Source: Candidatus Iainarchaeum sp. (GTDB lineage Archaea > Iainarchaeota > Iainarchaeia > Iainarchaeales > JAAZKV01). From it: a DNA stretch of 64,000 bases. Each line of letters starts with the position of its first letter. Position 1 is the stretch's first letter. Both the position numbers and the translations under genes were made by a program. Positions 1 through 12,504 of this stretch are shown here, piece after piece. The stretch covers positions 192,001-256,000 of the forward strand of contig JAPLVR010000003.1 of NCBI GenBank assembly GCA_026397015.1, in the 5' to 3' direction. A model generated the notes under the pieces. That model was not told where the DNA came from. It did not search any database and was given only the letters and a program-made list of their open reading frames with translations.

Positions 1-24
1 GGTGCAACTCTGGGAGGGGGGATT
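1..24 (+). repeat. Inter-cassette hairpin site 1 (left part cut by window edge)
   Basis: GGTGCAACTCTGGGAGGGGGGATT; same GCAACTCT/G-run/ATT motif as at 1210, 2760, 3422. Confidence 0.8.
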
Positions 25-88
25 ACACTTATAGTGCAATTCAATCAATTAGCAAAGATTTATATTAATTAAAAAATATTGTGTTGAT

Positions 89-322
89 ATGGGACTAAGA
101 AGATTAATACGATTGAAAAAGCTTCAACGCTTGAAGAGGGATCCGGAGCGAAGAGCGCAACTTGAAGTTGCCCGGGACTTTAGAAGATACTCTAGAATTA
201 ATCAGGAACCCAATTCACTTACTGGTGAAAAAGATCCAGGCATGTTACAAATTGCAAGCAAACAACGAGCAACCGCTAATAGAATTACAGCTGATCTGAA
301 GAAAAAAAGAAAATCTCTGTAA
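89..322 (+). CDS. Small Arg/Lys-rich hypothetical protein
   Basis: 77-aa ORF; TATA-like TTTATATT at ~59-66, about 25 nt before ATG (leaderless geometry). Confidence 0.6.
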   Translation: MGLRRLIRLKKLQRLKRDPERRAQLEVARDFRRYSRINQEPNSLTGEKDPGMLQIASKQRATANRITADLKKKRKSL

Positions 323-340
323 TTTGTTGCTAATCTACAG

Positions 341-376
341 AATGGCGCTGGCTGCGGCAGTCGAGAAGGGGGAATT
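341..376 (+). repeat. Inter-cassette hairpin site 2 (variant)
   Basis: AAT-GGCG-CTGGCTGCGGCAGTCGAG-AAGGGGGA-ATT; hairpin, purine run and ATT as in site 4. Confidence 0.55.
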
Positions 377-462
377 CCCTTTAGAGGGGCACCACCTAAA
401 CTAGTTCGACCACAAACTCTTGTTTTTACTACACACGCCCCTCAACTGCAAAAAACACGCAA

Positions 463-488
463 TCTTACTTGTAAGAAATCCTTAAATA
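463..488 (+). promoter_or_regulatory. Palindromic operator plus TATA box of the AbrB-PIN TA operon
   Basis: TCTTAC-TT-GTAAGA inverted repeat just upstream of CTTAAATA; AbrB-type antitoxins typically autoregulate via such palindromes. Confidence 0.5.
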
Positions 489-519
489 TTAGTTTGAATA
501 CAGTATTAACGGTGATTGG

Positions 520-768
520 ATGCAGCCAATAGTTGAAACAACAAAGATGTCCACAAAAGGGCAAATAATAATACCTAAAGAAGTAAGGGATTTCACCCAA
601 AGCAAGGAAAATACACTGTTTACAGTAACGCCAGTGAACACTGACACGATTATCCTCAAAAAATTAAACAGGCAAGAAATGGTGAAAGAATTCCAAAAAA
701 TAAGGCAAGAAGTAAAAGGCAAGCTTTCAGAGGATGAAATCAATGACCTCATACACAAAGTTCGATAG
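520..768 (+). CDS. AbrB/MazE/SpoVT-family antitoxin
   Basis: TKMSTKGQIIIPKEVR swapped-hairpin motif; GGTGAT RBS; overlaps PIN gene. Confidence 0.85.
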   Translation: MQPIVETTKMSTKGQIIIPKEVRDFTQSKENTLFTVTPVNTDTIILKKLNRQEMVKEFQKIRQEVKGKLSEDEINDLIHKVR

Positions 769-1177
769 CCGAAAACTCGTCCTAGACACAAACATAATAA
801 TTTCAGCGTTAATAGGAAAGCACGGCGAATCGGCAAAACTATTCGAAAAACTAATCCAGGAAGAAATTGACAACTATACAAGCAAAGAAATCATCCAAGA
901 AATAATTGACGTGCTAAACAGAAAAGAAATAATAAAAAGAACAGCAAAAGAAGCAAGAACATTCATCCTAGAACAATACCTCACACACTCAAAAATAGTT
1001 GTGCCAAAAGAAAAACACAAAATCACGGCACATGAATCAGACAACAAATTCATTGATACGGCAATTGAAGCAAAAGCAAGCTTTATCGTAAGCGGAGACA
1101 AACACTTGCTTGAAATAAAAGAATTTAAAGAAATAAAAATAATAAGAGCAAAAGAATACTTAGGCAACGGAAAATGA
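734..1177 (+). CDS. vapC: PIN-domain (VapC-like) toxin
   Basis: VLDTNIIISA, ESDNKFIDTA and VSGDKHLL PIN motifs; start may be ATG 743. Confidence 0.9.
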   Translation: MKSMTSYTKFDSRKLVLDTNIIISALIGKHGESAKLFEKLIQEEIDNYTSKEIIQEIIDVLNRKEIIKRTAKEARTFILEQYLTHSKIVVPKEKHKITAHESDNKFIDTAIEAKASFIVSGDKHLLEIKEFKEIKIIRAKEYLGNGK

Positions 1178-1200
1178 AAAGCAAACTGCCAACCAAGAAC

Positions 1201-1226
1201 AACCCGCGTGCAACTCTGGGGGGATT
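1201..1226 (+). repeat. Inter-cassette hairpin site 3
   Basis: AACCCGCGTGCAACTCTGGGGGGATT; shares GTGCAACTCTGGG and GGGATTACA with site 1. Confidence 0.85.
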
Positions 1227-1277
1227 ACATTTATATAATTCAAACGACTTATGCTTAGATTGGAGTGGTGATTTTAT

Positions 1278-1574
1278 TTGAATAAAAAATTTGGTTTAAA
1301 GTTTTTATTTGATCCGCAGTTTTTATTTGATTTACAGTTTTTAGCACTCAAAATTATAGGATTGCTGATTGCAACATATTTCATCTCAAACCTTTACTTT
1401 ACGGCAATCACAAGCACCTTTGCAAATTTGGAATATTTAACTTACTACTGGCCATTTTTTACTCTGGAAATATTAGCCGCTTTAATAGGGCTGTATTTAC
1501 TTTTTCGGCAAAAGAAATTCCCGGAAATGAAAATCCCTGAAAAACAAAAAAATGGGAATAAGAAAAAGAAATAA
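1278..1574 (+). CDS. Small membrane protein (2 TM, basic tail)
   Basis: Two hydrophobic segments; TTG start after GGAGTGGTGAT RBS and TTTATATA box. Confidence 0.7.
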   Translation: MNKKFGLKFLFDPQFLFDLQFLALKIIGLLIATYFISNLYFTAITSTFANLEYLTYYWPFFTLEILAALIGLYLLFRQKKFPEMKIPEKQKNGNKKKK

Positions 1575-1621
1575 ATATGCGGAACGGCCCCGACTGCAGC
1601 AATCGGGGAGGGGATTTATTT
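1569..1621 (+). repeat. Inter-cassette hairpin site 4 (variant)
   Basis: AAATAAAT (overlaps stop codon)...CCCCGACTGCAGCAATCGGGG-AGGGG-ATTTATTT; nested inverted repeats. Confidence 0.65.
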
Positions 1622-1648
1622 TTATACAATTCTTTGTTTGATTTAGTC

Positions 1649-2746
1649 ATGAATAAATCAATGCGAGATGCTACGACTGAGCCTATTCTGGATTATTCCA
1701 AGTTGCTGCGCCCCGCCAACTTTATCGGGGCTTCTCAGGAGGGGATTATTTCTTTTGGTTCGGGCCAACCTGACCTTGCTCCGCCGCAGGAAGTTTTTTC
1801 CGGCTTAGGGTTGCACAGGACATTCAAATACGGGCCTGTTGCCGGGCAGGACACATTAAGGGAAGCGCTTGCGAAAGAAAACCCCTTGTTTAGCAAAGAG
1901 CATTTTGTTATAACTAACGGGTCTTCGGAAGCGCTGGATATTATTTTTCGCGTACTTGCAAAACCAAAAGACAAAATACTGATACACACGCCATACTACT
2001 ATTCGTACAAACCATTACTAGAGCTAAACAATTTTGAACCCGTATTAGTAAATACCGTCAAGGGGAAAATTGATATGGGGGATTTTAGAAAAAAAGTTGT
2101 GGGGGTCAAGGCTGTGTTGATTAATTCTCCGAGCAATCCTACCGGCGTGATTCAAGAAATCAGTGCGCTTAAAGAAATTGAAAAAATAACAAAAGACCTC
2201 GATATCCCTCTGGTGTCTGATGAAGTGTATAAGGACTTGATTTATGAGAGAGAAAATTATTCTCTTTCAGGGCCGCACGTGATTACGGTGAATTCATTCT
2301 CAAAAACATTCAACCTGTGCGGTTTGCGCGTAGGGTACTTATTCTCCAATGACTTGGGCATAGTAAACAAAGTGATTAATTTCAAGTCCCATAGCTCAAT
2401 GAACACTTCAATTCTTTCCCAAGAGATGGCAGTGAAAGCGCTTAGTGTTCCGAAAAAGTTTATACGGGACCAGGTCAAGATTTGGAAGAGCAGAAGGGAT
2501 TTGATATACGAGGGGCTAACTGAAATGGGCCTTGATTTGTGGAAACCGGAAGGCGCATTTTATGTTTTCCCAAAAATCGACAACCCCGAAAAATTCGTGT
2601 ATGAGATGCATAAATACCACAAGGTTATCACTTACCCCGGAACCTGGTTTGGAGACAACGAACGGGTAAGATTTTCTTACGCTCTTAACGCAAACAAAAT
2701 TGAGGAAGGACTAGAGCGAGTGAGAAAGTACTTACACCGCCCATAA
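1649..2746 (+). CDS. PLP-dependent aminotransferase class I/II
   Basis: NSPSNPTG, SDEVY, NSFSKTFNLCGLRVG (PLP lysine), VRFSY; start moved to ATG 1649 downstream of TTTATA box. Confidence 0.92.
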   Translation: MNKSMRDATTEPILDYSKLLRPANFIGASQEGIISFGSGQPDLAPPQEVFSGLGLHRTFKYGPVAGQDTLREALAKENPLFSKEHFVITNGSSEALDIIFRVLAKPKDKILIHTPYYYSYKPLLELNNFEPVLVNTVKGKIDMGDFRKKVVGVKAVLINSPSNPTGVIQEISALKEIEKITKDLDIPLVSDEVYKDLIYERENYSLSGPHVITVNSFSKTFNLCGLRVGYLFSNDLGIVNKVINFKSHSSMNTSILSQEMAVKALSVPKKFIRDQVKIWKSRRDLIYEGLTEMGLDLWKPEGAFYVFPKIDNPEKFVYEMHKYHKVITYPGTWFGDNERVRFSYALNANKIEEGLERVRKYLHRP

Positions 2747-2778
2747 TTCTGGCACCGTAGCAACTCTGGAGGGGGATT
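2745..2778 (+). repeat. Inter-cassette hairpin site 5
   Basis: AATTCTGGCACCGTAGCAACTCTGGAGGGGGATT, starting within the aminotransferase stop codon. Confidence 0.8.
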
Positions 2779-2883
2779 TTTTTCTTATTACTGCACCGCC
2801 TTTAGGCAGTGCATATGTGTCGGTGCCAGCGGACGAAACCGCCGAACGATATGTTTAAATTCTGTAATTTACAGAATTTGTGC

Positions 2884-3246
2884 ATGACAAAGACTCGTAT
2901 AAGAACGCTTTCCAAAGAGGTAATAATTAACATAAACAAGAAATTCTCTGATGGAATAATGCGAAATGAGGGGGAAATAGACCACGTAGTGTACAAAGTT
3001 GCCGGTACCAGAGGGATAGATAGAAAAGCCGCTACATTGCTAATGGACATTGCAAGAAAGCATGCTTTCACTGACGGAAATAAAAGAACCGCTTATGAAT
3101 CAATGCTTACATTACTTGAACTGAATGGAAAAAAACTTGAAGTTGGAGAAACATCGAGATTTAATGTTGTTGTTTGGGTAGTAAAACCGAAAACAAATTT
3201 AGAGGAAATAATTACGTGGATAGCAAACCACACAAGGGGTAACTAA
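2884..3246 (+). CDS. Fic/Doc-family toxin
   Basis: HAFTDGNKRTA Doc-type motif; ATG 2884 follows TTTAAAT box. Confidence 0.9.
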   Translation: MTKTRIRTLSKEVIININKKFSDGIMRNEGEIDHVVYKVAGTRGIDRKAATLLMDIARKHAFTDGNKRTAYESMLTLLELNGKKLEVGETSRFNVVVWVVKPKTNLEEIITWIANHTRGN

Positions 3247-3247
3247 A

Positions 3248-3376
3248 ATGAAAGTAATAAAAGTCAAAGGAAAAAGAGAACCAATAACAATGGCTGAATG
3301 GAGTGACGTTAAAGAAATGGTTGAAAGACACCTAAAAGAAAACAAAACATTCTACGCACAACTAGCTGAATTATAA
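3248..3376 (+). CDS. Putative 42-aa antitoxin of the Doc toxin (not in ORF track)
   Basis: MKVIKVKGKREPITMAEWSDVKEMVERHLKENKTFYAQLAEL; starts 1 nt after toxin stop with GGGGT RBS; amphipathic C-terminal helix resembles Doc antitoxin tails. Confidence 0.65.
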   Translation: MKVIKVKGKREPITMAEWSDVKEMVERHLKENKTFYAQLAEL

Positions 3377-3400
3377 TTGTGACAAGCAACAGTTTTGACC

Positions 3401-3438
3401 GTAATCTTGAGCGCCCCGTGTGCAACTCTAGGGGCATT
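3401..3438 (+). repeat. Inter-cassette hairpin site 6
   Basis: GTAATCTTGAGC-GCCCC-GTGTGCAACTCTA-GGGGC-ATT. Confidence 0.8.
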
Positions 3439-3499
3439 CCTTTTTTCTGGTTTAGCTGCAAACAAAACTAATTTATTGCTTAGCTTGTAAAATTAGGTA

Positions 3500-3910
3500 A
3501 TGAAAATAACCTTGTGCTCGAGCTACAGATTCTTTGACAAATTATACGCAATAAAAAAGGCGCTGGAAGAAAGGGGTTACGAAGTGTTTTTACCGAGCAT
3601 GCGTGATTACCATCACCTTGAAGAAACCGCTCTCGCAAAAATACAATACAACCTAATCAAAAACCATTTCAGAAAAGTTGACAAGTCTGATGCAATCTAT
3701 GTGGCGAATTATGACAAGGACGGCGTAAAAGGTTACATAGGAGGAAACTCCTTCCTTGAGATGGGAAAGGCTTTTGACAAAGGAATTCCAATATTCCTCA
3801 TGAATGAGATCCCAACCCAATCGCCATACAGAGAAGAATTAATCGCGCTCATGCCGATAGTAATCGGCGAAGACTGGGATCTAATGAATAAATTGCTTAA
3901 AAAAAGGTGA
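3500..3910 (+). CDS. Nucleoside 2-deoxyribosyltransferase-like protein
   Basis: KITLCSS, KSDAIYVAN, GYIGGNSFLEMGKA, IPIFL pattern of NDT-like Rossmann fold. Confidence 0.65.
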   Translation: MKITLCSSYRFFDKLYAIKKALEERGYEVFLPSMRDYHHLEETALAKIQYNLIKNHFRKVDKSDAIYVANYDKDGVKGYIGGNSFLEMGKAFDKGIPIFLMNEIPTQSPYREELIALMPIVIGEDWDLMNKLLKKR

Positions 3911-3916
3911 CTAAAA

Positions 3917-4159
3917 ATGAAATTAAAAACAAAAGCTGAAAAGAAAAAGGTAAAATCGGAAAAATATGTCCGGGTATGCCCGATGTGCAGGAGCGCAAAA
4001 CTTTCAATAAACAACTCAAACCCCTTCTTTGTGAGTGCCAATATTTGGGAATACAAGTGCGGGAACTGCGGCTACAAAAATGCCCAGAGCCTATTCCCTG
4101 AAATAAAAATTCCCGAGAAACAAACAGGCGGAAAAAAGAAAAAAACGACAAAAAAATGA
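3917..4159 (+). CDS. Small Zn-ribbon protein
   Basis: CPMC...CGNCGY; GGTGA RBS. Confidence 0.7.
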   Translation: MKLKTKAEKKKVKSEKYVRVCPMCRSAKLSINNSNPFFVSANIWEYKCGNCGYKNAQSLFPEIKIPEKQTGGKKKKTTKK

Positions 4160-4223
4160 GCCTAAATGCCCCCCACAGAGAATGTTTATATACAACCAAG
4201 AAGCTAATTTGTTAAGTGGCATT

Positions 4224-4841
4224 ATGAGAAGAATCAACAGTCTGTTTGGAAGAAGAAAAAAACCGCTCAGCGAATCCGTAAAGAAAGCGCGTGAAAAAAG
4301 GTTGTTGGAGAGGAACACTCCGCCTACAAAAAAGGGTGGGAAAAAGCCGTTGAGGGAAAGTTTCTACCGCGGCTTTACTCCGAATAATTTGAGTGCAAAA
4401 GAGCAAAAGGAAACGGAAAGGGCAATCAAGGTGCTGGAAAGGGCAAGAATGAAGGGGATGAAAAATACCGTTATAAAAACCACTATTGGCACGCATGTTG
4501 GCGAGTTATACGGTTTTTGGAACGCATTACTTTCGGCCACAACAAACACATCAATAATGCGCGGGGCCGGAATTTACTTTAAAGCCACAATTGCGGGCGG
4601 CGCAATCGGATACGGAATCGGGCACGCTAAAAATGTGCCCCTTGTAAGAAGGGCGACAAAACTTGTCGGCAGGGCGCTCTACAAGGAACAGAAAAAGAAC
4701 AGGGATTTGCGAGAGTTCTTGGAAAAATACAGGTACGTTTACATCAATATGACCGGGGACATTGTCGGAACCAGGCTTCCAAAAATAATATTCGGAAGGA
4801 TGCGGCTGAGAACAAGTAAAATAATCGCCGGAAAATATTAG
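4224..4841 (+). CDS. Basic hypothetical protein with Arg/Lys-rich N-terminus and central hydrophobic Gly-rich segment
   Basis: ORF downstream of TTTATATA (4185-4192); start set at ATG 4224. Confidence 0.65.
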   Translation: MRRINSLFGRRKKPLSESVKKAREKRLLERNTPPTKKGGKKPLRESFYRGFTPNNLSAKEQKETERAIKVLERARMKGMKNTVIKTTIGTHVGELYGFWNALLSATTNTSIMRGAGIYFKATIAGGAIGYGIGHAKNVPLVRRATKLVGRALYKEQKKNRDLREFLEKYRYVYINMTGDIVGTRLPKIIFGRMRLRTSKIIAGKY

Positions 4842-4902
4842 GGGCGTTTAATCCCTGCAGCCACCCGCAACAATTTTTAATTGAATCCACAGAAACTTCA
4901 TT

Positions 4903-6021
4903 ATGATTCCGAAAAACATTTCCGAATTAGTTACCTTCTCGCCGAACAGGTTTGAGCCGATACATGACTGGTTCTACTATAAGGAAGGGTACGCAAAAAA
5001 ATTGGTTGAGTGGCTGGTAAAGGAATACAACCTGGAAGGCCCCATTTTTGACCCGTTCTGTGGAAGCGGGACAACAGTTTTGGCCGCAAAACAGATGGGC
5101 ATTGAAAGCATCGGGTGCGATGTTTCGCCGCTCGCGGTTCTTGCATCAAAAGTAAAAACAAGGAATTATGAAGTTGAAACGCTGAAAAAAAAGCTGGGCG
5201 AATTCAGGGAAATGAAAGTTCCTCCCGAGCAGTTGACGCCGCGCGACGAAAGGCTGAGAAAAATAATCAGCAGGGGAAACTGGGAAGAAATGCATTTTTT
5301 GAAAAAAAAGATTGAGGAAATTGGAGACGAAAAAGCAAGAGATTTTTTTTATTTGGCAATGGTTGATTCTTTCGGTGCAGTGGCGCAGGTGGTAAAAGTC
5401 GGGGGGTCGCTGAGAAGGGCGAAAAAAAATGTTCCATCAATGAAAAAGTTTTTCGAGAGGAAATGCGAGAGGATGATAAGGGATTTGGAAAGGGGGAAGA
5501 AGGGGGTGGAGCCGGAAGTAATCGAAGCCGATGCAAGGGTTTTCAACCTCGAGGAAAATAGTATTGGTTCCATAATTACTTCACCGCCGTACTTGAACAA
5601 AATCGAATACACTACCGTTTACAAGCTCGAGCTTATTTTGTTTTTCAAGGTGCAGGAAACGCAATTGAGGGCTTTCATCGGGGATGAGCCTCAAAACATC
5701 AGGGGAACAAAAATAAAAATCAAAAATTTTCAAAAGTTTCCGCCGATTGCGCAGGCATACTTTGAAGATATGGAAAAAGTGATGGTGAACTGCTTCCGCT
5801 GTTTAAAGCCGAAAGGGAAAATGGTTATTGTTGTGGCTGGAGGATGCCTGCCAGATAGAATAATTCAGAGCGACGAAATTTTGTGCGATTTGGGGCAGGC
5901 GATTGGATTCAAAATAATCGATATTATTGCCGCAAGAGAAATTTTTTGCCACGCAAACAGGTCGATAAAAATCGGGAAAGTAAGGGAAAGCGTTATTGTT
6001 TTGGAGAAGCCGGAAGTTTGA
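4903..6021 (+). CDS. Orphan DNA amino-methyltransferase (N4-C/N6-A family)
   Basis: IHDWFYYKEGY, SAM-binding DPFCGSGTT preceding catalytic TSPPY. Confidence 0.88.
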   Translation: MIPKNISELVTFSPNRFEPIHDWFYYKEGYAKKLVEWLVKEYNLEGPIFDPFCGSGTTVLAAKQMGIESIGCDVSPLAVLASKVKTRNYEVETLKKKLGEFREMKVPPEQLTPRDERLRKIISRGNWEEMHFLKKKIEEIGDEKARDFFYLAMVDSFGAVAQVVKVGGSLRRAKKNVPSMKKFFERKCERMIRDLERGKKGVEPEVIEADARVFNLEENSIGSIITSPPYLNKIEYTTVYKLELILFFKVQETQLRAFIGDEPQNIRGTKIKIKNFQKFPPIAQAYFEDMEKVMVNCFRCLKPKGKMVIVVAGGCLPDRIIQSDEILCDLGQAIGFKIIDIIAAREIFCHANRSIKIGKVRESVIVLEKPEV

Positions 6022-6090
6022 AAAGAAAGGTATAAATACCATGAAGAACGCTATACTTCGGGAAGGATTTCCGATTTTTGAGGTGGTTTT

Positions 6091-8340
6091 TTGAAAAGGT
6101 TTCTTGGAATAGTTTTATTGGTCGCAGTAATTATTTTATTTTCAGGGTGCATCCAACCGCCAGTATGCGGAAACGAAAGATGTGAAATAGGAGAGAACCA
6201 AGACAACTGTTCAGCGGATTGCTCGTCACAATCGCCGCCTTCGGTGCAGATCTTTGAGCCGGAAATCAACGGTCTTGTTGTGACCCAAAACGGCGTTGCA
6301 CAGCCTAACTGTGGAAGCTTTGACGAAACATACTGCGCAAACTATTCCGCTGGCCCAGACCAAAATGGAACAATATTCAACGGGCCCATTGCATTTGAAT
6401 GGGGCGACGGAAGTGTTTCATGTTCCTGGTTCCCTGCGGAACATCAATATGCACAAGCCGGTGAGTATACAATAAGCGTAAGTGCAAAAAATACCTGTAC
6501 CGAAACGATCGGCGGCGCAACCAGAATTGTGCGAATAAGTTCAGGTTCTTGCGGAAATTCAATATGCGAAGCAGAAGAAACGCCTCAAACATGTTCCGAT
6601 GATTGTAGCATAATTTCTCCGGGAGTTTACGAGCTAAATATCGGGGACAAAATATTTGTTGAAGGAGGCGGAAATTTTGCAGGCGAAATACTGTCAATAA
6701 CATTTATTGATGTGGTTCAGCCGGGAACGGGCCCAAACATGCCCTACCAAGGGAAATGGACACTAAAAAACAACTACACATTACTAAAAATTGTCCAAAA
6801 AGCGCCGGGCACTTACTTAAACGACGAATTCGGATCAAATTATTTTAACCGCAATCCGAAAATATACGTTGAAGAGGTTGCGTTTAATCTGCAAACCGAA
6901 AAATATTTCGCAAAAGTGAGGATAACAAGCGGAATAGAAATAAGGACTGACCAAGTGTTCCCGTACGATCCGGCGCAAACAACAAATCCAGAATGGACTG
7001 GGCACGCGAACACTGTTTTGGAAGGAAATAAAGTCAAACTTCTCTCAATTGAAATAATGAATAATTGGTCATATGACCAACCAACAAACGAGAGTTCGAC
7101 ACAGAAAATCGTCCTCGCAAAAAACCAATCAATAAAACTCCCTTTGGATTATGGGCACATAACTTACGAAGGCCTTCAAGGGGAAAACCCTGAAGTAACC
7201 GAAACAATTGGCGGAAACACATTAAAAATAACTGATACTTTTGGAATCCAAAGAGAAGTTCCATTAGTAATCCAGCTGGGATTCGGTCTTAACGAGATAA
7301 TGATTTCAGGAACCCCATTTGTTGTTTATCTCGCTAAGCTTGAAAACACTGAAAAGGATGTTGCCAGGTACTGGCCTTACTCTAGAACTGCCGCGGCAAT
7401 TCCCGACCCATGGAAAAACCCTCCGGCAGGTTACAATGACATCTCATATTCAAACAAAAGCGTAACAAAAACAACCCTAAGCTTCTGGGTAAATACAACC
7501 AGCATGTCGCCAAAATATGCCCTAGGGGTTGACAAAACAACCGGGCAGGCATGGCTTTTACTGTCCAGCCAGTCATTCCGCGTTAAATCTGCAAGCAGAA
7601 GCGGCATTCTTGAGGTCGGAAGCACCTGCATCCCATCAGCCACGCCGGACCAAAGGCCGTATTACCTGCCGGATTTAACCACGTTAAATGTTCTTACCGG
7701 GGCCGGCTATTCAATAATGCCGTCTGATGGGGATTCTTACGAATTCACTTCAAAAATGACACTCAAGGATTATGACAATCCGCAGGGAGTAGATTTTTAT
7801 CTCGGGACGTCGGATGATTTGCTCGTAAACAGCACAAATAATAAAGCAAGGTGCAGCACGGCGGACAATGAGGCGGAATATATTCATTGGAACCTAAATG
7901 AATACACAACCGCGGCATCCACAAAGCTGCTGCAGGGATACACTACTTACGGCACAAAGGTAACGGTCAGCGAGGGAATTGGAAAAGCATACGTTCCGCT
8001 TTACACAAAGGTCATGGCGCACACAACTGTAAACATTTCCAACCCAATTGAATTATTCCTGAGAAACAAAATACAGGATTCAAATCAATTCATTTGGGAT
8101 ATAAGCTCCAATGATGTGTACAGCGAAAAAATAATGCTTGAGGCAACCGCGAGAAATCAGACAATCGCAAACGGCTTTTATCCGGGCGAGGTTGTTTTGT
8201 CAATAGGAAAAAATGGAATAGAATACTACGTCACATTCAACCAGCCTGCCGATATCGGCACCGAAATAAATTTCATGGGCAAAAATTATAGGATTGCGGA
8301 AATCGGATTAGGGCGCGTATTCCTTGAAGAAGTGCAATAA
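6091..8340 (+). CDS. Surface lipoprotein with CGNxxCE..C..DC repeats, PKD-like domain and S-layer-like region
   Basis: Signal peptide with FSGC lipobox; WGDG..HQY...GEYTISV PKD motif; shares a domain with the 62668 ORF. Confidence 0.75.
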   Translation: MKRFLGIVLLVAVIILFSGCIQPPVCGNERCEIGENQDNCSADCSSQSPPSVQIFEPEINGLVVTQNGVAQPNCGSFDETYCANYSAGPDQNGTIFNGPIAFEWGDGSVSCSWFPAEHQYAQAGEYTISVSAKNTCTETIGGATRIVRISSGSCGNSICEAEETPQTCSDDCSIISPGVYELNIGDKIFVEGGGNFAGEILSITFIDVVQPGTGPNMPYQGKWTLKNNYTLLKIVQKAPGTYLNDEFGSNYFNRNPKIYVEEVAFNLQTEKYFAKVRITSGIEIRTDQVFPYDPAQTTNPEWTGHANTVLEGNKVKLLSIEIMNNWSYDQPTNESSTQKIVLAKNQSIKLPLDYGHITYEGLQGENPEVTETIGGNTLKITDTFGIQREVPLVIQLGFGLNEIMISGTPFVVYLAKLENTEKDVARYWPYSRTAAAIPDPWKNPPAGYNDISYSNKSVTKTTLSFWVNTTSMSPKYALGVDKTTGQAWLLLSSQSFRVKSASRSGILEVGSTCIPSATPDQRPYYLPDLTTLNVLTGAGYSIMPSDGDSYEFTSKMTLKDYDNPQGVDFYLGTSDDLLVNSTNNKARCSTADNEAEYIHWNLNEYTTAASTKLLQGYTTYGTKVTVSEGIGKAYVPLYTKVMAHTTVNISNPIELFLRNKIQDSNQFIWDISSNDVYSEKIMLEATARNQTIANGFYPGEVVLSIGKNGIEYYVTFNQPADIGTEINFMGKNYRIAEIGLGRVFLEEVQ

Positions 8341-8370
8341 ATAATACGATTCTCAAAGGGCGATTAGTTT

Positions 8371-9580: not shown

Positions 9581-10318
9581 ATGTTAATTGAACTTTTCCT
9601 GTCTCTTCTGGCAATTTCCCTCGTCTCGCTGATAGGCTTATTTTCATTTGCGGTAAACTCAAAAAAAATCGGGAAATTGCTCGGAGAAATGGTTGCGTTT
9701 GCGGTAGGCGCTCTTCTCGGGGACGTTTTCATCCATCTCCTTCCGGAACTTGGAAAAAACGGGTTTTCACTTGAAATTTCAATAACGATTCTTGCTGGAA
9801 TGGTTTCATTCTTCGTGCTGGAAAAATTCATCCACTGGCACCACTGCCACCACGTCGAGCATGGAAAAGCCTGCCAGAGATTCACATACATGAGCATTTA
9901 TGGCGACGCGCTGCACAATTTCATTGACGGGATAATACTTGCAGGCGCTTTTATTTCGGGAAACGTAATCGGCTTTTCAACCGCAATCGCGGTTTTTCTG
10001 CATGAAGTGCCGCAGGAAATCGGGGATTTTGGAATTCTGCTGAAAGGCGGCTTCACAAAGAAAAGAGCATTGTTTTATAATTTCGTGACGGCGCTTACGA
10101 CATTCGTGGGAGCGGGATTTGCTTTATATTTCAGCACGCTAATGGAAGGAATTGCCCCTTTTTTTATCGCTTTTGCCGCTGGAAGCTTTTTGTACATCGC
10201 CGGAACGGATTTGCTGCCGGAACTGCACAAAGAATTCTCACCAAAAAAAATATTTTCACAGATATTTTTTATCATTCTTGGCATAGGAGTAATGGGCGCG
10301 CTCTTACTGATAGGGTAG
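9581..10318 (+). CDS. ZIP-family metal transporter
   Basis: HLLPE, His-rich loop HWHHCHH, HNFIDG, HEVPQEIGDF. Confidence 0.93.
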   Translation: MLIELFLSLLAISLVSLIGLFSFAVNSKKIGKLLGEMVAFAVGALLGDVFIHLLPELGKNGFSLEISITILAGMVSFFVLEKFIHWHHCHHVEHGKACQRFTYMSIYGDALHNFIDGIILAGAFISGNVIGFSTAIAVFLHEVPQEIGDFGILLKGGFTKKRALFYNFVTALTTFVGAGFALYFSTLMEGIAPFFIAFAAGSFLYIAGTDLLPELHKEFSPKKIFSQIFFIILGIGVMGALLLIG

Positions 10319-10379
10319 ATAACAAGTCTGCAAATCTTCGAAGCGGAAGTAATTTAACCAAGAAAAGAGGAATTACTTA

Positions 10380-11081
10380 ATGAAAAAAATATTCAGAACA
10401 CCTTTTTTCAATGGAAGGAAAAAAAGAATTGAAAGAGCAGTAGAAAGGGCAAGGGCATTGCGGGCGAGAAAACGCGTTCCATGGAAAAGAGGAATATCCG
10501 AATTACACGAGATGAACGAATCGCACGCGAGAGAACTTATTGCAAGAAAAATAGTTCTTCCTGCGGCAAGAAAAGCGCTTGGAAGGCATCTAAAAGCGGT
10601 CCTGATTTTCGGGAGCGCACAGCAGGGAGTAAGGGAATCAGTGCTTGGCCACAGGAAATATTTGAATGAACGCCCCGCACTTGCCATCCCGAAAAAAAGC
10701 GATCTTGATATATTACTGATAAGCACAAAAGCACCTGACAGAGAATCTTACCAGACAATGGCAGGGCTTTCAAGCATGGTGCCAATTGACCTTGAAAATA
10801 CTTTGGGCGGGCAAATGGGTGCCGGCGGTTTCATTAGAAGAAAAACAAAAAAAATCGAAAAAACTGTTTCAGACCTGAAAATACTTAATCTGGGATTTTA
10901 TGTGCATTTCGAAATAGTGCACCCTGATGTTTTTGCGAACGAAATGCGCAACATTTTTTCTCCATTTCAAGTGATAAGCGGGAAGAAATATGTTCAGCAA
11001 ATACTTGAAGAAAAATTTTTCGAAAGGCTGCCGAGAATGAAAAAAGAACTCAAAAAAGATTATCCTTTGAAGTATTCATGA
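10380..11081 (+). CDS. Nucleotidyltransferase-fold protein with basic N-terminal extension
   Basis: VLIFGSAQQG...SDLDILLI (Pol-beta NTase GS/DxD motif). Confidence 0.6.
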   Translation: MKKIFRTPFFNGRKKRIERAVERARALRARKRVPWKRGISELHEMNESHARELIARKIVLPAARKALGRHLKAVLIFGSAQQGVRESVLGHRKYLNERPALAIPKKSDLDILLISTKAPDRESYQTMAGLSSMVPIDLENTLGGQMGAGGFIRRKTKKIEKTVSDLKILNLGFYVHFEIVHPDVFANEMRNIFSPFQVISGKKYVQQILEEKFFERLPRMKKELKKDYPLKYS

Positions 11082-11092
11082 TTAAACTTTTG

Positions 11093-11686
11093 TTAAAGCG
11101 CGGGCGAAGTAACTTTCTCAAGCGCTTCCTTCAACATTGCTTTTGCGCCGCCGTAGTTGTGCCCGGGCCAAATTATTATCTCAGGATTTTTTTTTGAGAA
11201 CGCTGAAAGCTTTTCCAGCGAAGCGCGCATTTCATTTTCATCGCCGCCGAAATCGGCTCTTCCCGTGCCGTCGGCAAACAGCACATCGCCGGTAAATAAA
11301 TTATTTTTAATCAAAAAACAAACGCTGTCGGAAGTGTGGCCGGGAAGGAAAAGCGTTTCAATTCTGAAACCCGCGACTTCAATTTCCGGGCACTTTTTTA
11401 AATCTTCAAAACTTTTCAAAAGGATTCCTTTCTCAATAAAGCAATTCACGTTTCCGGCATGGTCGAAGTGGGAATGGGTTACTAATTGAAAAATAACTTT
11501 TGCGTCATTTTTCCTTATTGCTTTTTCTATTTCTTCAATTGAGCCGGTCGCATCAATCAAAACCGCTCCGCCATTTTTTCCGATTACAAGATAAGAAAAA
11601 TTGTTGTCGAAGCCGCGGACATTTACCTGAATTATTTTTACTTTTTCCGGTTTTGGAGATTTTTTTAGGCTTTTGGAGGAAACCAT
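11093..11686 (-). CDS. Metallo-beta-lactamase fold hydrolase (glyoxalase II-like)
   Basis: THSHFDH, PGHT, FTGD, PGH motifs; start reset to avoid overlap with divergent gene. Confidence 0.9.
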   Translation of the reverse strand: MVSSKSLKKSPKPEKVKIIQVNVRGFDNNFSYLVIGKNGGAVLIDATGSIEEIEKAIRKNDAKVIFQLVTHSHFDHAGNVNCFIEKGILLKSFEDLKKCPEIEVAGFRIETLFLPGHTSDSVCFLIKNNLFTGDVLFADGTGRADFGGDENEMRASLEKLSAFSKKNPEIIIWPGHNYGGAKAMLKEALEKVTSPAL

Positions 11687-12251: not shown

Positions 12252-12320
12252 CCTTTCATAAAAAAGGCTGTGCCGAACGAAGTGAGGCGTTTTTCGCCAG
12301 CCTTTTTCTCAAAAAGGCTG
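12252..12320 (+). repeat. REP-like cluster (partial copy, GCCGAACGAAGTGAGGC spacer hairpin, full copy 12291-12320)
   Basis: TTTTCGC-CAGCCTTTTT-CTC-AAAAAGGCTG; the last G is tRNA position 1. Confidence 0.8.
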
Positions 12321-12391
12321 CCCCGATAGTCTATTGGTTAGGATTCACCCCTGTCACGGGTGAGAGCCGGGTCCGAATCCCGGTCGGGGCG
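12320..12391 (+). tRNA. tRNA-Asp(GTC), no encoded CCA
   Basis: Acceptor GCCCCGA/TCGGGGC plus G discriminator; anticodon arm CACCC-CTGTCAC-GGGTG; T arm CCGGG-TCCGAAT-CCCGG. Confidence 0.95.
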
Positions 12392-12504
12392 TTTTGGGCG
12401 AAAGGCCTATCTATTAACAGTGTATATTTTAACAATAAAAAAAAGAAAAAGCAAAACCTTTAAATACAACCTCGATACACAAAATAATATTGGTTGCGAT
12501 TTCG

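What the first reader, a model, noticed from the sequence alone, without database searches (positions are those of the whole stretch)
1..3910. Integron-like gene-cassette array delimited by a non-canonical hairpin site
Seen: six unrelated units follow one another on the same strand (basic orphan; AbrB-PIN TA; membrane protein; aminotransferase; Doc TA; NDT-like). A related 25-50 nt site sits at every junction (1, 341, 1201, 1569, 2745, 3401). Four sites share GCAACTCT (4-11, 1210-1217, 2760-2767, 3422-3429) followed by a G-run and ATT; two are variants (TGC.GCA.TCG, G-run, ATT). The sites fold into imperfect stems around a GCA-containing loop. Four are bracketed by AAT...ATT, and in two of these the AAT overlaps the upstream stop codon. 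Each unit has its own TATA-like box, base composition shifts between units, and I did not notice the full motif elsewhere in the window. Established: integron arrays show this architecture and are rich in TA cassettes, but attC uses RYYYAAC/GTTRRRY cores and is about 55 nt or longer; GNA triloops are especially stable in ssDNA. Inference: a cassette capture/shuffling system with a short AAT/ATT ssDNA-hairpin site, whose recombinase would lie left of the window or act in trans.
Basis: partly seen in the sequence, partly recalled or inferred. Interest (0 to 1): 0.85.

Follow-up and report, generated by a model that had tools for sequence, protein, structure and literature searches.

The report
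Gene-cassette array behind tRNA-Tyr
Five small gene units sit in a row behind the tyrosine tRNA gene of a small archaeal genome, each ending in a copy of the tRNA's tail, so they look like DNA pieces inserted one after another by a site-specific recombinase: an integron-like gene-capture site built on a tRNA gene.

Summary
The repeated "hairpin site" is real, but it is not a new kind of site. Site 1 (window 1-24) is the 3' end (T-loop to acceptor end, plus TT) of an intron-bearing tRNA-Tyr(GTA) gene that starts 151 nt left of the window. ARAGORN finds it only with introns allowed. The other five sites are same-strand partial copies of that tail. Three are canonical (1209, 2759, 3421). Two belong to a recurrent variant class (352, 1594). 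Genome-wide the motif occurs only here.

Relatives show the same architecture. Fifteen of 37 other same-family genomes carry 2-7 stringent copies. Of 64 metagenome contigs, 24 carry two or more. Units have a median length of about 0.85 kb. In 58 of 60 the main ORF lies on the tRNA strand.

Near-identical contigs diverge exactly at the core. The same cassettes recur at different array positions. A dedicated tyrosine-integrase family sits 17-123 nt after the core in 13 loci, though not in this genome.

The hairpin/ssDNA idea fails. The sixth unit (NDT-like) is conserved flank, not a cassette.

Verdict: this is a tRNA-anchored, integron-like cassette array. It is a new variant of tRNA-targeted integrative islands.

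The parts
1..24 (+). 3' end of the tRNA-Tyr(GTA) gene: T-stem 3' part, T-loop TGCAACT, acceptor 3' strand and discriminator A at window 22, followed by TT. This is the head att core of the array. The whole gene is G000:C5:191849-192022 (window -151 to 22) and has a 101-nt intron at position 37/38.
   Evidence: ARAGORN with introns allowed. It is the only tRNA-Tyr among the 37 tRNAs found. ARAGORN without introns and Rfam both missed it.
25..351 (+). Cassette 1: a 77-aa basic orphan ORF at 89-322, with a TATA-like TTTATATT at about 60-67.
   Evidence: ORF list. No Pfam family. Absent from the same place in the same-genus genome G001.
352..376 (+). Site 2, variant-class core CTGCGGCAGTCGAGAAGGGGGAATT. 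Its left arm ACAGAATGGCGCTGG starts at about 337.
   Evidence: Matches the variant consensus with 3 mismatches in 25. The same class lies at the far end of G006/G036a-type integrase elements and at the terminal site of G001.
377..1208 (+). Cassette 2: a toxin-antitoxin pair, AbrB/MazE-like at 520-768 and PIN at 734-1177. The palindromic promoter region TCTTACTTGTAAGAA and a TTAAATA box lie at about 463-490.
   Evidence: Pfam PIN_3 3.9e-20 and MazE 0.0073. The same cassette is first in the arrays of G007 and G008 (72-86% aa identity) and follows an interior core in metagenome contig L106.
1209..1226 (+). Site 3, canonical core TGCAACTCTGGGGGGATT. It is a copy of the tRNA tail with a 4-nt deletion in the G-run.
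1227..1593 (+). Cassette 3: a 98-aa hydrophobic protein at 1278-1574, with TATA-like TTTATATA at about 1233-1243.
   Evidence: No Pfam family. GC 0.31.
1594..1616 (+). Site 4, variant-class core CTGCAGCAATCGGGGAGGGGATT, with left arm GCGGAACGG at 1579-1587.
   Evidence: The left arm matches the ACGGAACGG arm of variant sites in G036a and G006.
1617..2758 (+). Cassette 4: a class I/II aminotransferase, with likely start ATG at 1649 and end at 2746.
   Evidence: Pfam Aminotran_1_2 4.2e-56. There is no close homologue in 37 other same-family genomes; the best is 27-28% identical and lies elsewhere. GC 0.42.
2759..2778 (+). Site 5, decayed canonical core AGCAACTCTGGAGGGGGATT.
2779..3420 (+). Cassette 5: a Doc/Fic-family toxin gene at 2884-3246, followed by a 42-aa ORF at 3248-3376.
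   Evidence: Pfam Fic/DOC 3.1e-07. Only one broken relative was found in 37 other same-family genomes.
3421..3438 (+). Site 6, the terminal decayed core TGCAACTCTAGGGGCATT, followed by a T-run.
   Evidence: Homology with G001 resumes at 3461.
3461..3941 (+). Conserved chromosomal flank holding the NDT-like gene (3500-3910). It is not a cassette.
   Evidence: 77% nucleotide identity to G001 at the corresponding place. Proteins are 81% identical.

Best explanation
Window 1-3440 is a tRNA-Tyr-anchored array of five small gene cassettes. Each cassette ends in a copy of the tRNA's 3' tail (T-loop to acceptor end plus TT, 16-22 nt). That tail is the att core of a dedicated family of tyrosine integrases.

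Shown here:
- Site 1 is the tRNA-Tyr 3' end.
- The copies are confined to this locus and lie on the same strand.
- Related genomes and metagenome contigs carry arrays of the same build with other cassettes.
- Breakpoints between near-identical sequences fall at the edges of the core.
- The same cassettes occur at different array positions.
- The integrase genes sit directly behind a core.

Inferred:
- The integrase recombines a core carried on an incoming circular DNA with the core in the tRNA, or with an interior core.
- Strand exchange lies inside the shared TC(T/G)GGGAGGGGGGATT. The incoming DNA then restores the tRNA tail and the old tail is pushed outward, where it decays. This matches the increasingly damaged cores at 1209, 2759 and 3421.
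- Two att classes (canonical and CTGCGGCA-type) correspond to two integrase subfamilies.
- In this genome no such integrase is present, so the array is either served in trans by a visiting 8-10 kb integrase element or is currently frozen.

The cassettes are toxin-antitoxin pairs, an aminotransferase and small membrane or basic proteins. Each has its own TATA-like box and is expressed on its own. In relatives the cassettes are mostly TA modules, Fic proteins and lipoproteins.
For: tRNA identity.

Locus-specific motif: 4 matches against 0.83 expected in the window. Genome-wide it occurs only at C5:192000-195440. No other tRNA of the genome has extra tail copies.

Relatives: 15 of 37 other same-family genomes have 2-7 copies at 2 or fewer mismatches in 22 nt, co-oriented wherever they share a contig. 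The reversed-pattern control gave 0 everywhere. Only 3 of 158 genomes of other families in the order have 2 copies. 24 of 64 metagenome contigs have 2 or more same-strand sites.

Unit geometry: 60 inter-site intervals of 250-3000 nt in 31 dereplicated loci. Median length is 880 nt, the longest ORF is on the tRNA strand in 58 of 60, and the longest ORF covers a median 0.73 of the interval. A hand-curated set gave 48 of 52.

Gain and loss at the sites:
- G000 and G001 (same genus) share both flanks but none of the array.
- L082 and L084 are 100% identical over 8.8 kb up to GGATT. One then continues with a small cassette, the other with an integrase element.
- L063, L106 and L048 are identical up to the same core and then have three different continuations.
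- G020 and L093 (94% identical flanks) differ by two cassettes at the tRNA head and one at an interior degenerate site.

Shared cassettes: AbrB-PIN in G000 (position 2), G007 (position 1), G008 (position 1) and L106. Fic, MazF, RelE, HicB and lipoprotein cassettes are shared between genomes.

Integrases: PF00589 plus a SAM-like N-terminal domain. The gene starts 17-123 nt after a core, on the same strand, in 13 loci, 11 of them non-duplicate. All three inter-site intervals longer than 3 kb start with one.
Against: - No integrase of this family is in G000, which is 85% complete. The best match is 30-33% identical and lies next to tRNA-Ser on contig C3. None lies in the 16 kb to the left.
- No circular or empty-site junction was seen, because only contigs could be laid, not reads.
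- The interior cores of G000 are decayed, so the local array may be inactive.
- Cassette arm pairs show no more inverted repeats than random pairs, so a full attP on each small cassette is not shown.
- In G007 a duplicated cassette is 100% identical from the core to about 50 nt before the next core. The left arm did not travel with it, which does not fit simple core-to-core excision.
- The spacer between the core and the conserved start of the AbrB-PIN cassette is 10-100 nt in different genomes.
- All relatives are metagenome assemblies. Joins at repeats could be chimeric, although identical arrays were assembled from three samples.
Confidence: 0.8

Rival explanations
1. The units are decay remnants. 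Each was once a full 4-10 kb integrase-bearing element inserted at tRNA-Tyr. Deletions removed the integrase and most genes, leaving att-flanked stubs (CIME-type), and later arrivals piled up by accretion. Under this reading the cassettes never move on their own.
For: - Full integrase elements do use the same site.
- Decay to att-flanked elements and tandem accretion are documented for bacterial ICE/IME (PMC5704250, passages) and for tycheposon islands (bioRxiv 10.1101/2020.12.28.424599, passages).
- G000 has no integrase and its cores are decayed.
- No attP-like arm symmetry was found on the small units.
Against: - The longest ORF lies on the tRNA strand in 58 of 60 units, whereas the integrase elements carry genes on both strands.
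- The units are intact genes or operons that fill a median 0.73 of the interval.
- No integrase fragments were found between sites at E<=1e-10. The only partial hit sits at a contig start.
- The sequence just right of cassette cores differs from the right arms of the two integrase elements.
- The same small cassette recurs with different neighbours.
- A single cassette is inserted at an interior site in G020 relative to L093.
Confidence: 0.14
2. It is a true integron or an integron-type ssDNA system. The sites are folded hairpins recombined as single strands by an IntI-like or HUH enzyme.
For: The architecture resembles one: co-oriented single-gene cassettes, many of them TA modules. The first site contains a stem-loop.
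Against: - That stem-loop is the tRNA T-arm.
- The stem is lost in 41 of 43 interior sites.
- 5 of 6 local sites fold no better than shuffles.
- The cores contain no RYYYAAC/GTTRRRY pair (read).
- The associated recombinases are ordinary Phage_integrase/SAM-like proteins placed behind the site.
- Each cassette has its own promoter-like box.
Confidence: 0.02
3. The repeats are not recombination sites. They are regulatory or RNA-level elements (terminator, processing signal, REP-like repeat, tRNA-like 3' UTR) that happen to resemble the tRNA tail. The gene order arose by ordinary rearrangement or homologous recombination.
For: - Each repeat lies between a stop codon and the next promoter.
- Some right arms carry small hairpins or T-runs.
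Against: - The motif occurs nowhere else in the genome.
- It is always downstream of tRNA-Tyr and co-oriented with it.
- It coincides with breakpoints between near-identical contigs and with integrase genes.
Confidence: 0.03

Closest known systems
tRNA-targeted integrative elements and tRNA-anchored genomic islands built by serial integration (Islander-type islands; Prochlorococcus tycheposon islands; archaeal integrated elements)
   Same: - A tyrosine integrase acts on an att core that is the 3' part of a tRNA gene.
- The incoming DNA restores the tRNA.
- Displaced partial tRNA copies mark the element ends.
- Repeated use of the site pushes older elements outward.
Sources: Islander abstract in the listing; tycheposon passages; PMC6563490 passage on arrays of integrated elements; PMC9897764 passages.
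   Different: - Here the units between partial tRNA copies are mostly single genes of 0.35-1.5 kb with no integrase.
- Arrays reach 7-9 sites.
- The units are almost all co-oriented with the tRNA (58 of 60).
- The known islands contain kb-scale elements, fragmented integrases and scattered partial tRNAs.
CIMEs and site-specific accretion (Streptococcus ICESt-type elements)
   Same: Att-flanked elements that lack their own recombination genes sit in tandem with integrase-bearing elements at the 3' end of a gene. They depend on an integrase supplied by a neighbour (PMC5704250, passages).
   Different: - CIMEs are described as decayed ICE/IME of several kb.
- Here the units look like compact, intact, uniformly oriented cassettes, and the same cassette recurs in other arrays.
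- The host is an archaeon, and no conjugation module is involved.
Integrons, especially chromosomal arrays rich in toxin-antitoxin cassettes (including the archaeal integrons of PMC9668308, for which I saw only the listing and the start of the abstract)
   Same: - An ordered, co-oriented array of mostly single-gene cassettes, each followed by a recombination site.
- TA modules are frequent.
- Cassette content differs between close relatives.
- A tyrosine recombinase is involved.
   Different: - No IntI and no attI/Pc platform; the anchor is a tRNA gene.
- The sites are 16-22 nt sequence-conserved copies of the tRNA tail, not structure-conserved attC hairpins.
- The cassettes carry their own promoters.
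- When present, the integrase travels on an 8-10 kb element inside the array.

Membership tests
Integron | IntI-type integrase gene next to an attI site and a Pc promoter at the head of the array | tested here: not met
   The head of the array is a tRNA-Tyr gene. There is no PF00589 match within 16 kb to the left or in the array. The three matches in the genome lie elsewhere. The integrases of relatives are Phage_integrase plus SAM-like proteins placed behind the core. The IntI-specific insertion was not examined.
Integron | attC sites: imperfect palindromes with R''/L''...L'/R' boxes (RYYYAAC / GTTRRRY), conserved in structure rather than sequence | tested here: not met
   The sites are conserved in sequence (22-nt core). 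The 5-bp stem is intact in only 2 of 43 interior sites. ssDNA folds of 5 of 6 local sites are no better than shuffles. No GTTRRRY/RYYYAAC pair is seen in the cores. IntegronFinder itself could not be run.
tRNA-targeted integrative element / genomic island (tyrosine integrase) | Direct repeats at the element ends that are identical to the 3' part of an intact tRNA gene at one end | tested here: met
   The tRNA-Tyr tail lies at window 1-24, with partial copies at 1209, 2759 and 3421 and variant copies at 352 and 1594, all on the + strand.
tRNA-targeted integrative element / genomic island (tyrosine integrase) | A tyrosine integrase gene next to one att site | tested here: not met
   Not met in this genome. 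Met in relatives at the same site: 13 loci have the gene 17-123 nt behind a core.
tRNA-targeted integrative element / genomic island (tyrosine integrase) | Presence/absence polymorphism whose breakpoints coincide with the att repeats | tested here: met
   G000 vs G001; L082 vs L084 and L063/L106/L048; G020 vs L093.
CIME (cis-mobilizable element) with accretion | Flanked by attL/attR, without integration or transfer genes, and derived by decay from an ICE/IME | tested here: inconclusive
   Att-flanked and integrase-less: met. Derivation by decay: no integrase fragments were found and the orientation bias is strong, which argues against it without excluding it.
REP / terminator-type dispersed repeat | Copies scattered genome-wide behind unrelated genes | tested here: not met
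   Copies occur only at C5:192000-195440 in 898 kb.

The most novel reading that the evidence does not exclude
This family of small-genome archaea has evolved its own functional counterpart of the integron. The 3' end of tRNA-Tyr serves as the capture site. Single genes with their own promoters circulate as tiny integrase-less circles that carry only a copy of the tRNA tail. They are inserted, excised and shuffled one at a time, at the tRNA or at any interior core, by integrases lent in trans by 8-10 kb mobile elements. This would give genome-reduced, probably host-dependent archaea a dedicated locus for swapping TA/defence genes and surface lipoproteins.
Probability: 0.45. Interest if true: 0.8.

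Novelty: new variant of a known kind. Interest (0 to 1): 0.68.

Why it matters
Integrons are the textbook example of a dedicated gene-capture platform, and where their cassettes come from is still unknown.

Here a different lineage, archaea with genomes of about 1 Mb, appears to reach the same architecture by a simpler route. The array consists of co-oriented single-gene cassettes rich in TA modules, with content that turns over between close relatives. The route uses an ordinary tRNA att core and an ordinary tyrosine integrase.

If single cassettes do move, the system offers three things:
- a tractable model for how cassette arrays arise from tRNA-targeted integrative elements;
- a marker (a 22-nt core downstream of tRNA-Tyr) for finding the flexible genes of these uncultured archaea, about a third of which look like lipoproteins;
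- a caution for annotation, because the key tRNA is missed by default tRNA and Rfam scans owing to its 101-nt intron.

Tried and rejected
- ARAGORN without introns and Rfam at E<=1 did not report the tRNA-Tyr. Only ARAGORN with -i found it.
- ssDNA hairpin idea: rejected.
- Arm symmetry test. I compared the longest inverted repeat between the right and left arms of the same cassette with random arm pairs. Means were 4.35 and 4.48, so there is no signal.
- A scan of viral contigs for the 22-nt core found 0 stretches. No free viral or plasmid form was found there.
- Metagenome contig L103 has a core near both ends, but its ends do not overlap. It is an integrated 10.1-kb element, not a circle.
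- The look-up of sequencing runs and read laying. All four runs are kept as contigs, so no reads could show circles or empty sites.
  - X1 may be the source of this DNA and spans the stretch in one piece.
  - X3 holds short contigs identical to parts of the array.
  - One joint in X3 (L001 16024 to 16449, side 28, likeness threshold 85) would put the AbrB-PIN promoter region right behind a tRNA-Tyr tail. It is too weak to count and probably comes from another organism.
  - Parts without cover say nothing.
- The two identical HicB cassettes of G007 were considered as proof of cassette duplication. I did not use them, because the right boundary does not fit and the join may be an assembly of two strain variants.
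- The protein-atlas search on the neighbouring TYW1-like gene showed only that the organism is an archaeon. The lineage name was not determined, and 'DPANN-like' is my inference from genome size and habitat labels.
- Literature. Six searches returned no paper whose listed title or abstract start describes single-gene cassette arrays bounded by tRNA-tail copies. Only the four papers cited were opened, and then only as passages. This covers the held open-access library only. Supplementary files were not consulted, and supplements of the tycheposon and archaeal-integron papers could hold similar cases. Williams 2002 (NAR 30:866) was seen only as a reference entry; its content is recalled.

Full report
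WHAT IS THERE. The window is G000:C5:192001-256000 of an 898-kb, 6-contig genome with GC 0.42. I read 16 kb to the left and noticed a cloverleaf-like sequence interrupted by about 100 nt. ARAGORN with introns allowed reports tRNA-Tyr(GTA) at C5:191849-192022, with a 101-nt intron at position 37/38. It is the only tRNA-Tyr among the 37 tRNAs found. Default ARAGORN and Rfam both miss it. Its last base is window position 22. The neighbouring TYW1-like gene shows that the organism is an archaeon.

THE REPEATS. GCAACTCT followed by a G-run lies at 4, 1210, 2760 and 3422, all on the + strand. That is 4 matches against 0.83 expected by shuffling, and 1 of 100 shuffles reached 4. Aligned, the copies begin at the T-loop and run to the discriminator A plus TT:
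- tRNA: TGCAACTCTGGGAGGGGGGATT
- 1209: the same with a 4-nt deletion in the G-run
- 2759: AGCAACTCTGGAGGGGGATT
- 3421: TGCAACTCTAGGGGCATT

The two other sites (352-376 and 1594-1616) belong to a second class, CTGCRGCARTCGRGRAGGGGRATT. This class recurs in relatives with a left arm ACGGAACGG. Genome-wide, both classes occur only at this locus. No other tRNA of the genome has spare tail copies.

THE HAIRPIN IDEA FAILS. The stem-loop in site 1 is the T-arm. In relatives the 5-bp T-stem is intact in 19 of 19 tRNA copies but in only 2 of 43 interior sites. The other 41 have 4, 3, 2 or 1 pairs in 6, 23, 9 and 3 sites respectively. Folded as ssDNA, 5 of the 6 local sites are no more stable than shuffles. 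The repeat therefore starts after the 5' strand of the stem. It is a sequence repeat, not a structure.

THE UNITS. Five units lie between the six sites:
- a basic orphan
- an AbrB/MazE-PIN pair
- a 98-aa membrane protein
- an aminotransferase
- Doc plus a 42-aa ORF

Each unit has a TATA-like box 22-35 nt before its start codon. GC ranges from 0.31 to 0.42. The sixth unit (NDT-like) is not part of the array. Comparison with the same-genus genome G001 shows conserved sequence up to the tRNA tail and again from window 3461 onward, at 77% identity. Nothing between is shared. G001 instead has a lipoprotein cassette and a Fic cassette, bounded by a canonical site and a variant site.

RELATIVES. I searched 61 related genomes with the tRNA gene and fetched 20 loci. 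Arrays of same-strand tail copies lie downstream of tRNA-Tyr in many of them. G017 has the tRNA plus 8 sites. G004 has 5 extra sites, G007 and G036 have 4, and G023 and G012 have 3.

A pattern search over 196 genomes of the order found 2-7 copies in 15 of 37 other same-family genomes. The threshold was 2 or fewer mismatches in 22 nt. Only 3 of 158 genomes of other families had 2 copies. The reversed-pattern control gave 0 everywhere. Copies that share a contig are always co-oriented. G000 itself scores 1 at this stringency, because its interior cores are decayed. An exact-match scan of metagenome contigs gave 64 stretches, and 24 of them hold 2 or more same-strand sites.

With one automatic criterion on dereplicated loci there are 60 inter-site intervals of 250-3000 nt in 31 loci. 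Median length is 880 nt. The longest ORF lies on the tRNA strand in 58 of 60 and covers a median 0.73 of the interval. Twenty-one of 60 begin with a lipobox-like signal. An earlier count that included some hand-added sites gave 53 of 56 intervals at 3 kb or less, and 48 of 52 on the tRNA strand.

INTEGRASES. The three intervals longer than 3 kb each start with a tyrosine recombinase gene (G017 7.9 kb, G036a 3.9 kb, G006 8.8 kb). These proteins match PF00589 and carry a SAM-like N-terminal domain. Homologues at 50-100% identity begin 17-123 nt behind a core, on the same strand, in 13 loci, 11 of them non-duplicate.

The G006/G036a-type elements end in a variant-class site, and their arms contain ACGGAAC...GTTCCGT in inverted orientation. 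The G017-type element ends in a canonical site. This suggests two att classes matched to two integrase subfamilies, which is an inference.

G000 has three PF00589 genes, none near the array. The closest to the tRNA-Tyr integrases is 30-33% identical and lies beside tRNA-Ser on contig C3.

EVIDENCE THAT THE CORE IS WHERE DNA IS EXCHANGED. All-against-all comparison of the loci and alignments give four cases.
(a) L082 and L084 are 100% identical over 8.8 kb through an intron-less tRNA-Tyr up to ...GGGAGGGGGGATT. From there L082 continues with a 0.6-kb cassette and L084 with a G017-type integrase element.
(b) L063, L106 and L048 come from three assemblies. They are identical up to an interior core and then have three different continuations. 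One of these is the AbrB-PIN cassette of G000.
(c) G023 and L086 share one 554-nt cassette at 97.6% identity. The identity starts at the T-loop of the preceding site, and the neighbours differ.
(d) G020 and L093 have 94% identical flanks. G020 has two extra cassettes between the tRNA and a decayed tail copy that is followed by the common flank. It also has one extra cassette at an interior position where L093 has only a strongly degenerate site.

The T-loop position that differs between species (C, T or G) also differs among the interior sites of one array, while the tRNA keeps its own base. Both att classes share only TC(T/G)GGGAGGGGGGATT. I therefore place strand exchange inside that 16-nt stretch. 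This is an inference.

SHARED CASSETTES. Protein clustering shows the following:
- AbrB-PIN in G000 (position 2), G007 (position 1) and G008 (position 1), at 72-86% identity
- Fic in G001, G007 (twice) and G036 (twice)
- MazF/PemK, RelE/HigB-like and HicB pairs, and lipoproteins, in several arrays (Pfam)

The aminotransferase of G000 has no close relative in 37 other same-family genomes. The Doc gene has one broken relative.

MECHANISM. The most economical reading is the textbook one for tRNA-targeted elements. An integrase recombines a core on incoming circular DNA with the core in the tRNA. The incoming copy becomes the new tRNA tail, and the old one is displaced outward and decays. The literature passages I read describe exactly this, including stacking of elements separated by partial tRNAs (tycheposons; arrays of integrated elements; CIME and accretion; one full plus one partial tRNA copy).

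What is unusual here is the unit. Mostly it is a single intact gene or a TA pair of 0.35-1.5 kb. It has no integrase, carries its own promoter, and is almost always co-oriented with the tRNA. Arrays reach up to 9 sites. That is the architecture of an integron, reached with a tRNA att core. The six searches I ran returned no paper whose listed title or abstract start describes this (only four papers were opened, as passages).

WHAT REMAINS OPEN. It is not settled whether single cassettes move as circles in trans (my estimate is 0.45), or whether they are compact relics, or whether they travel only as part of larger elements.

Against simple core-to-core mobility:
- There is no arm symmetry on the small units.
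- The boundary of the G007 duplicate is odd.
- The spacer between the core and the start of the cassette is variable.

Against the relic view:
- The orientation bias is strong, the genes are intact and no integrase fragments are seen.
- The same cassette recurs with different neighbours.
- One cassette is inserted at an interior site.

No reads were available to look for circles. The local array has decayed cores and no integrase, so it may be inactive.

VERDICT.

Noticed in passing
L001:15849-16022 (window -151 to 22) and loci L025-L044: The tRNA-Tyr intron at position 37/38 varies widely in length among relatives. ARAGORN reports 0, 33, 37, 40, 58, 84, 101, 106-111 and 139 nt. Contigs in runs X3 and X5 join the two exons without the 101 nt. 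Many other tRNAs of G000 also carry 58-148-nt introns. Default tRNA and Rfam scans miss these genes.
   Followed up: partly
L001:5970-6737 (-), which is G000:C5:181970-182737: A 255-aa LAGLIDADG_3 ORF (Pfam 3.8e-08) overlaps tRNA-Thr(TGT) on the opposite strand. It lies next to a second T-arm-like stretch at about L001:6796. It could be a homing-endonuclease gene associated with a split or intron-bearing tRNA.
   Followed up: no
G000:C5:163309-163734 (+) and G000:C3:120396-120893 (+): Two further tyrosine recombinase genes of this genome lie just downstream of tRNA-Glu(CTC) and tRNA-Ser(GCT). They are probably other integrated elements. No spare tail copy of those tRNAs was found. The C3 copy sits at a contig end.
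   Followed up: partly
window 3942-4900, 6021-8370 and 10285-11111: Between the array and tRNA-Asp(GTC) at 12319-12392, G000 has three stretches with no counterpart in the same-genus genome G001. G001 in turn has a 2.4-kb stretch of its own. No tRNA-tail copies were seen at these boundaries. A conserved N6/N4 DNA methylase gene lies at 4903-6021.
   Followed up: no
interior sites of arrays in L025-L108: Two flanking modules recur next to unrelated genes. A left arm begins with ATGA[AG] 35-80 nt before the core, in 37 of 72 interior sites against 5 of 40 tRNA copies. A right arm consists of a short hairpin, then ACCGAGCAGA-AATAGA, then a TATA box, in 18 of 72 interior sites and 8 of 40 tRNA copies. 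Their role is unknown.
   Followed up: partly
L030 (G007), oriented 2926-3490 and 4577-5135: Two 100% identical copies of a HicB cassette lie in one array, separated by a Fic cassette. The identity ends about 50 nt before the next core. This is either an unusual recombination product or an assembly of two strain variants.
   Followed up: partly
cassette ORFs in arrays of relatives: About a third of the cassettes (21 of 60) encode proteins with a lipobox-like N-terminus (MKK...LFGC). This suggests that the arrays diversify the cell surface of these small archaea.
   Followed up: partly
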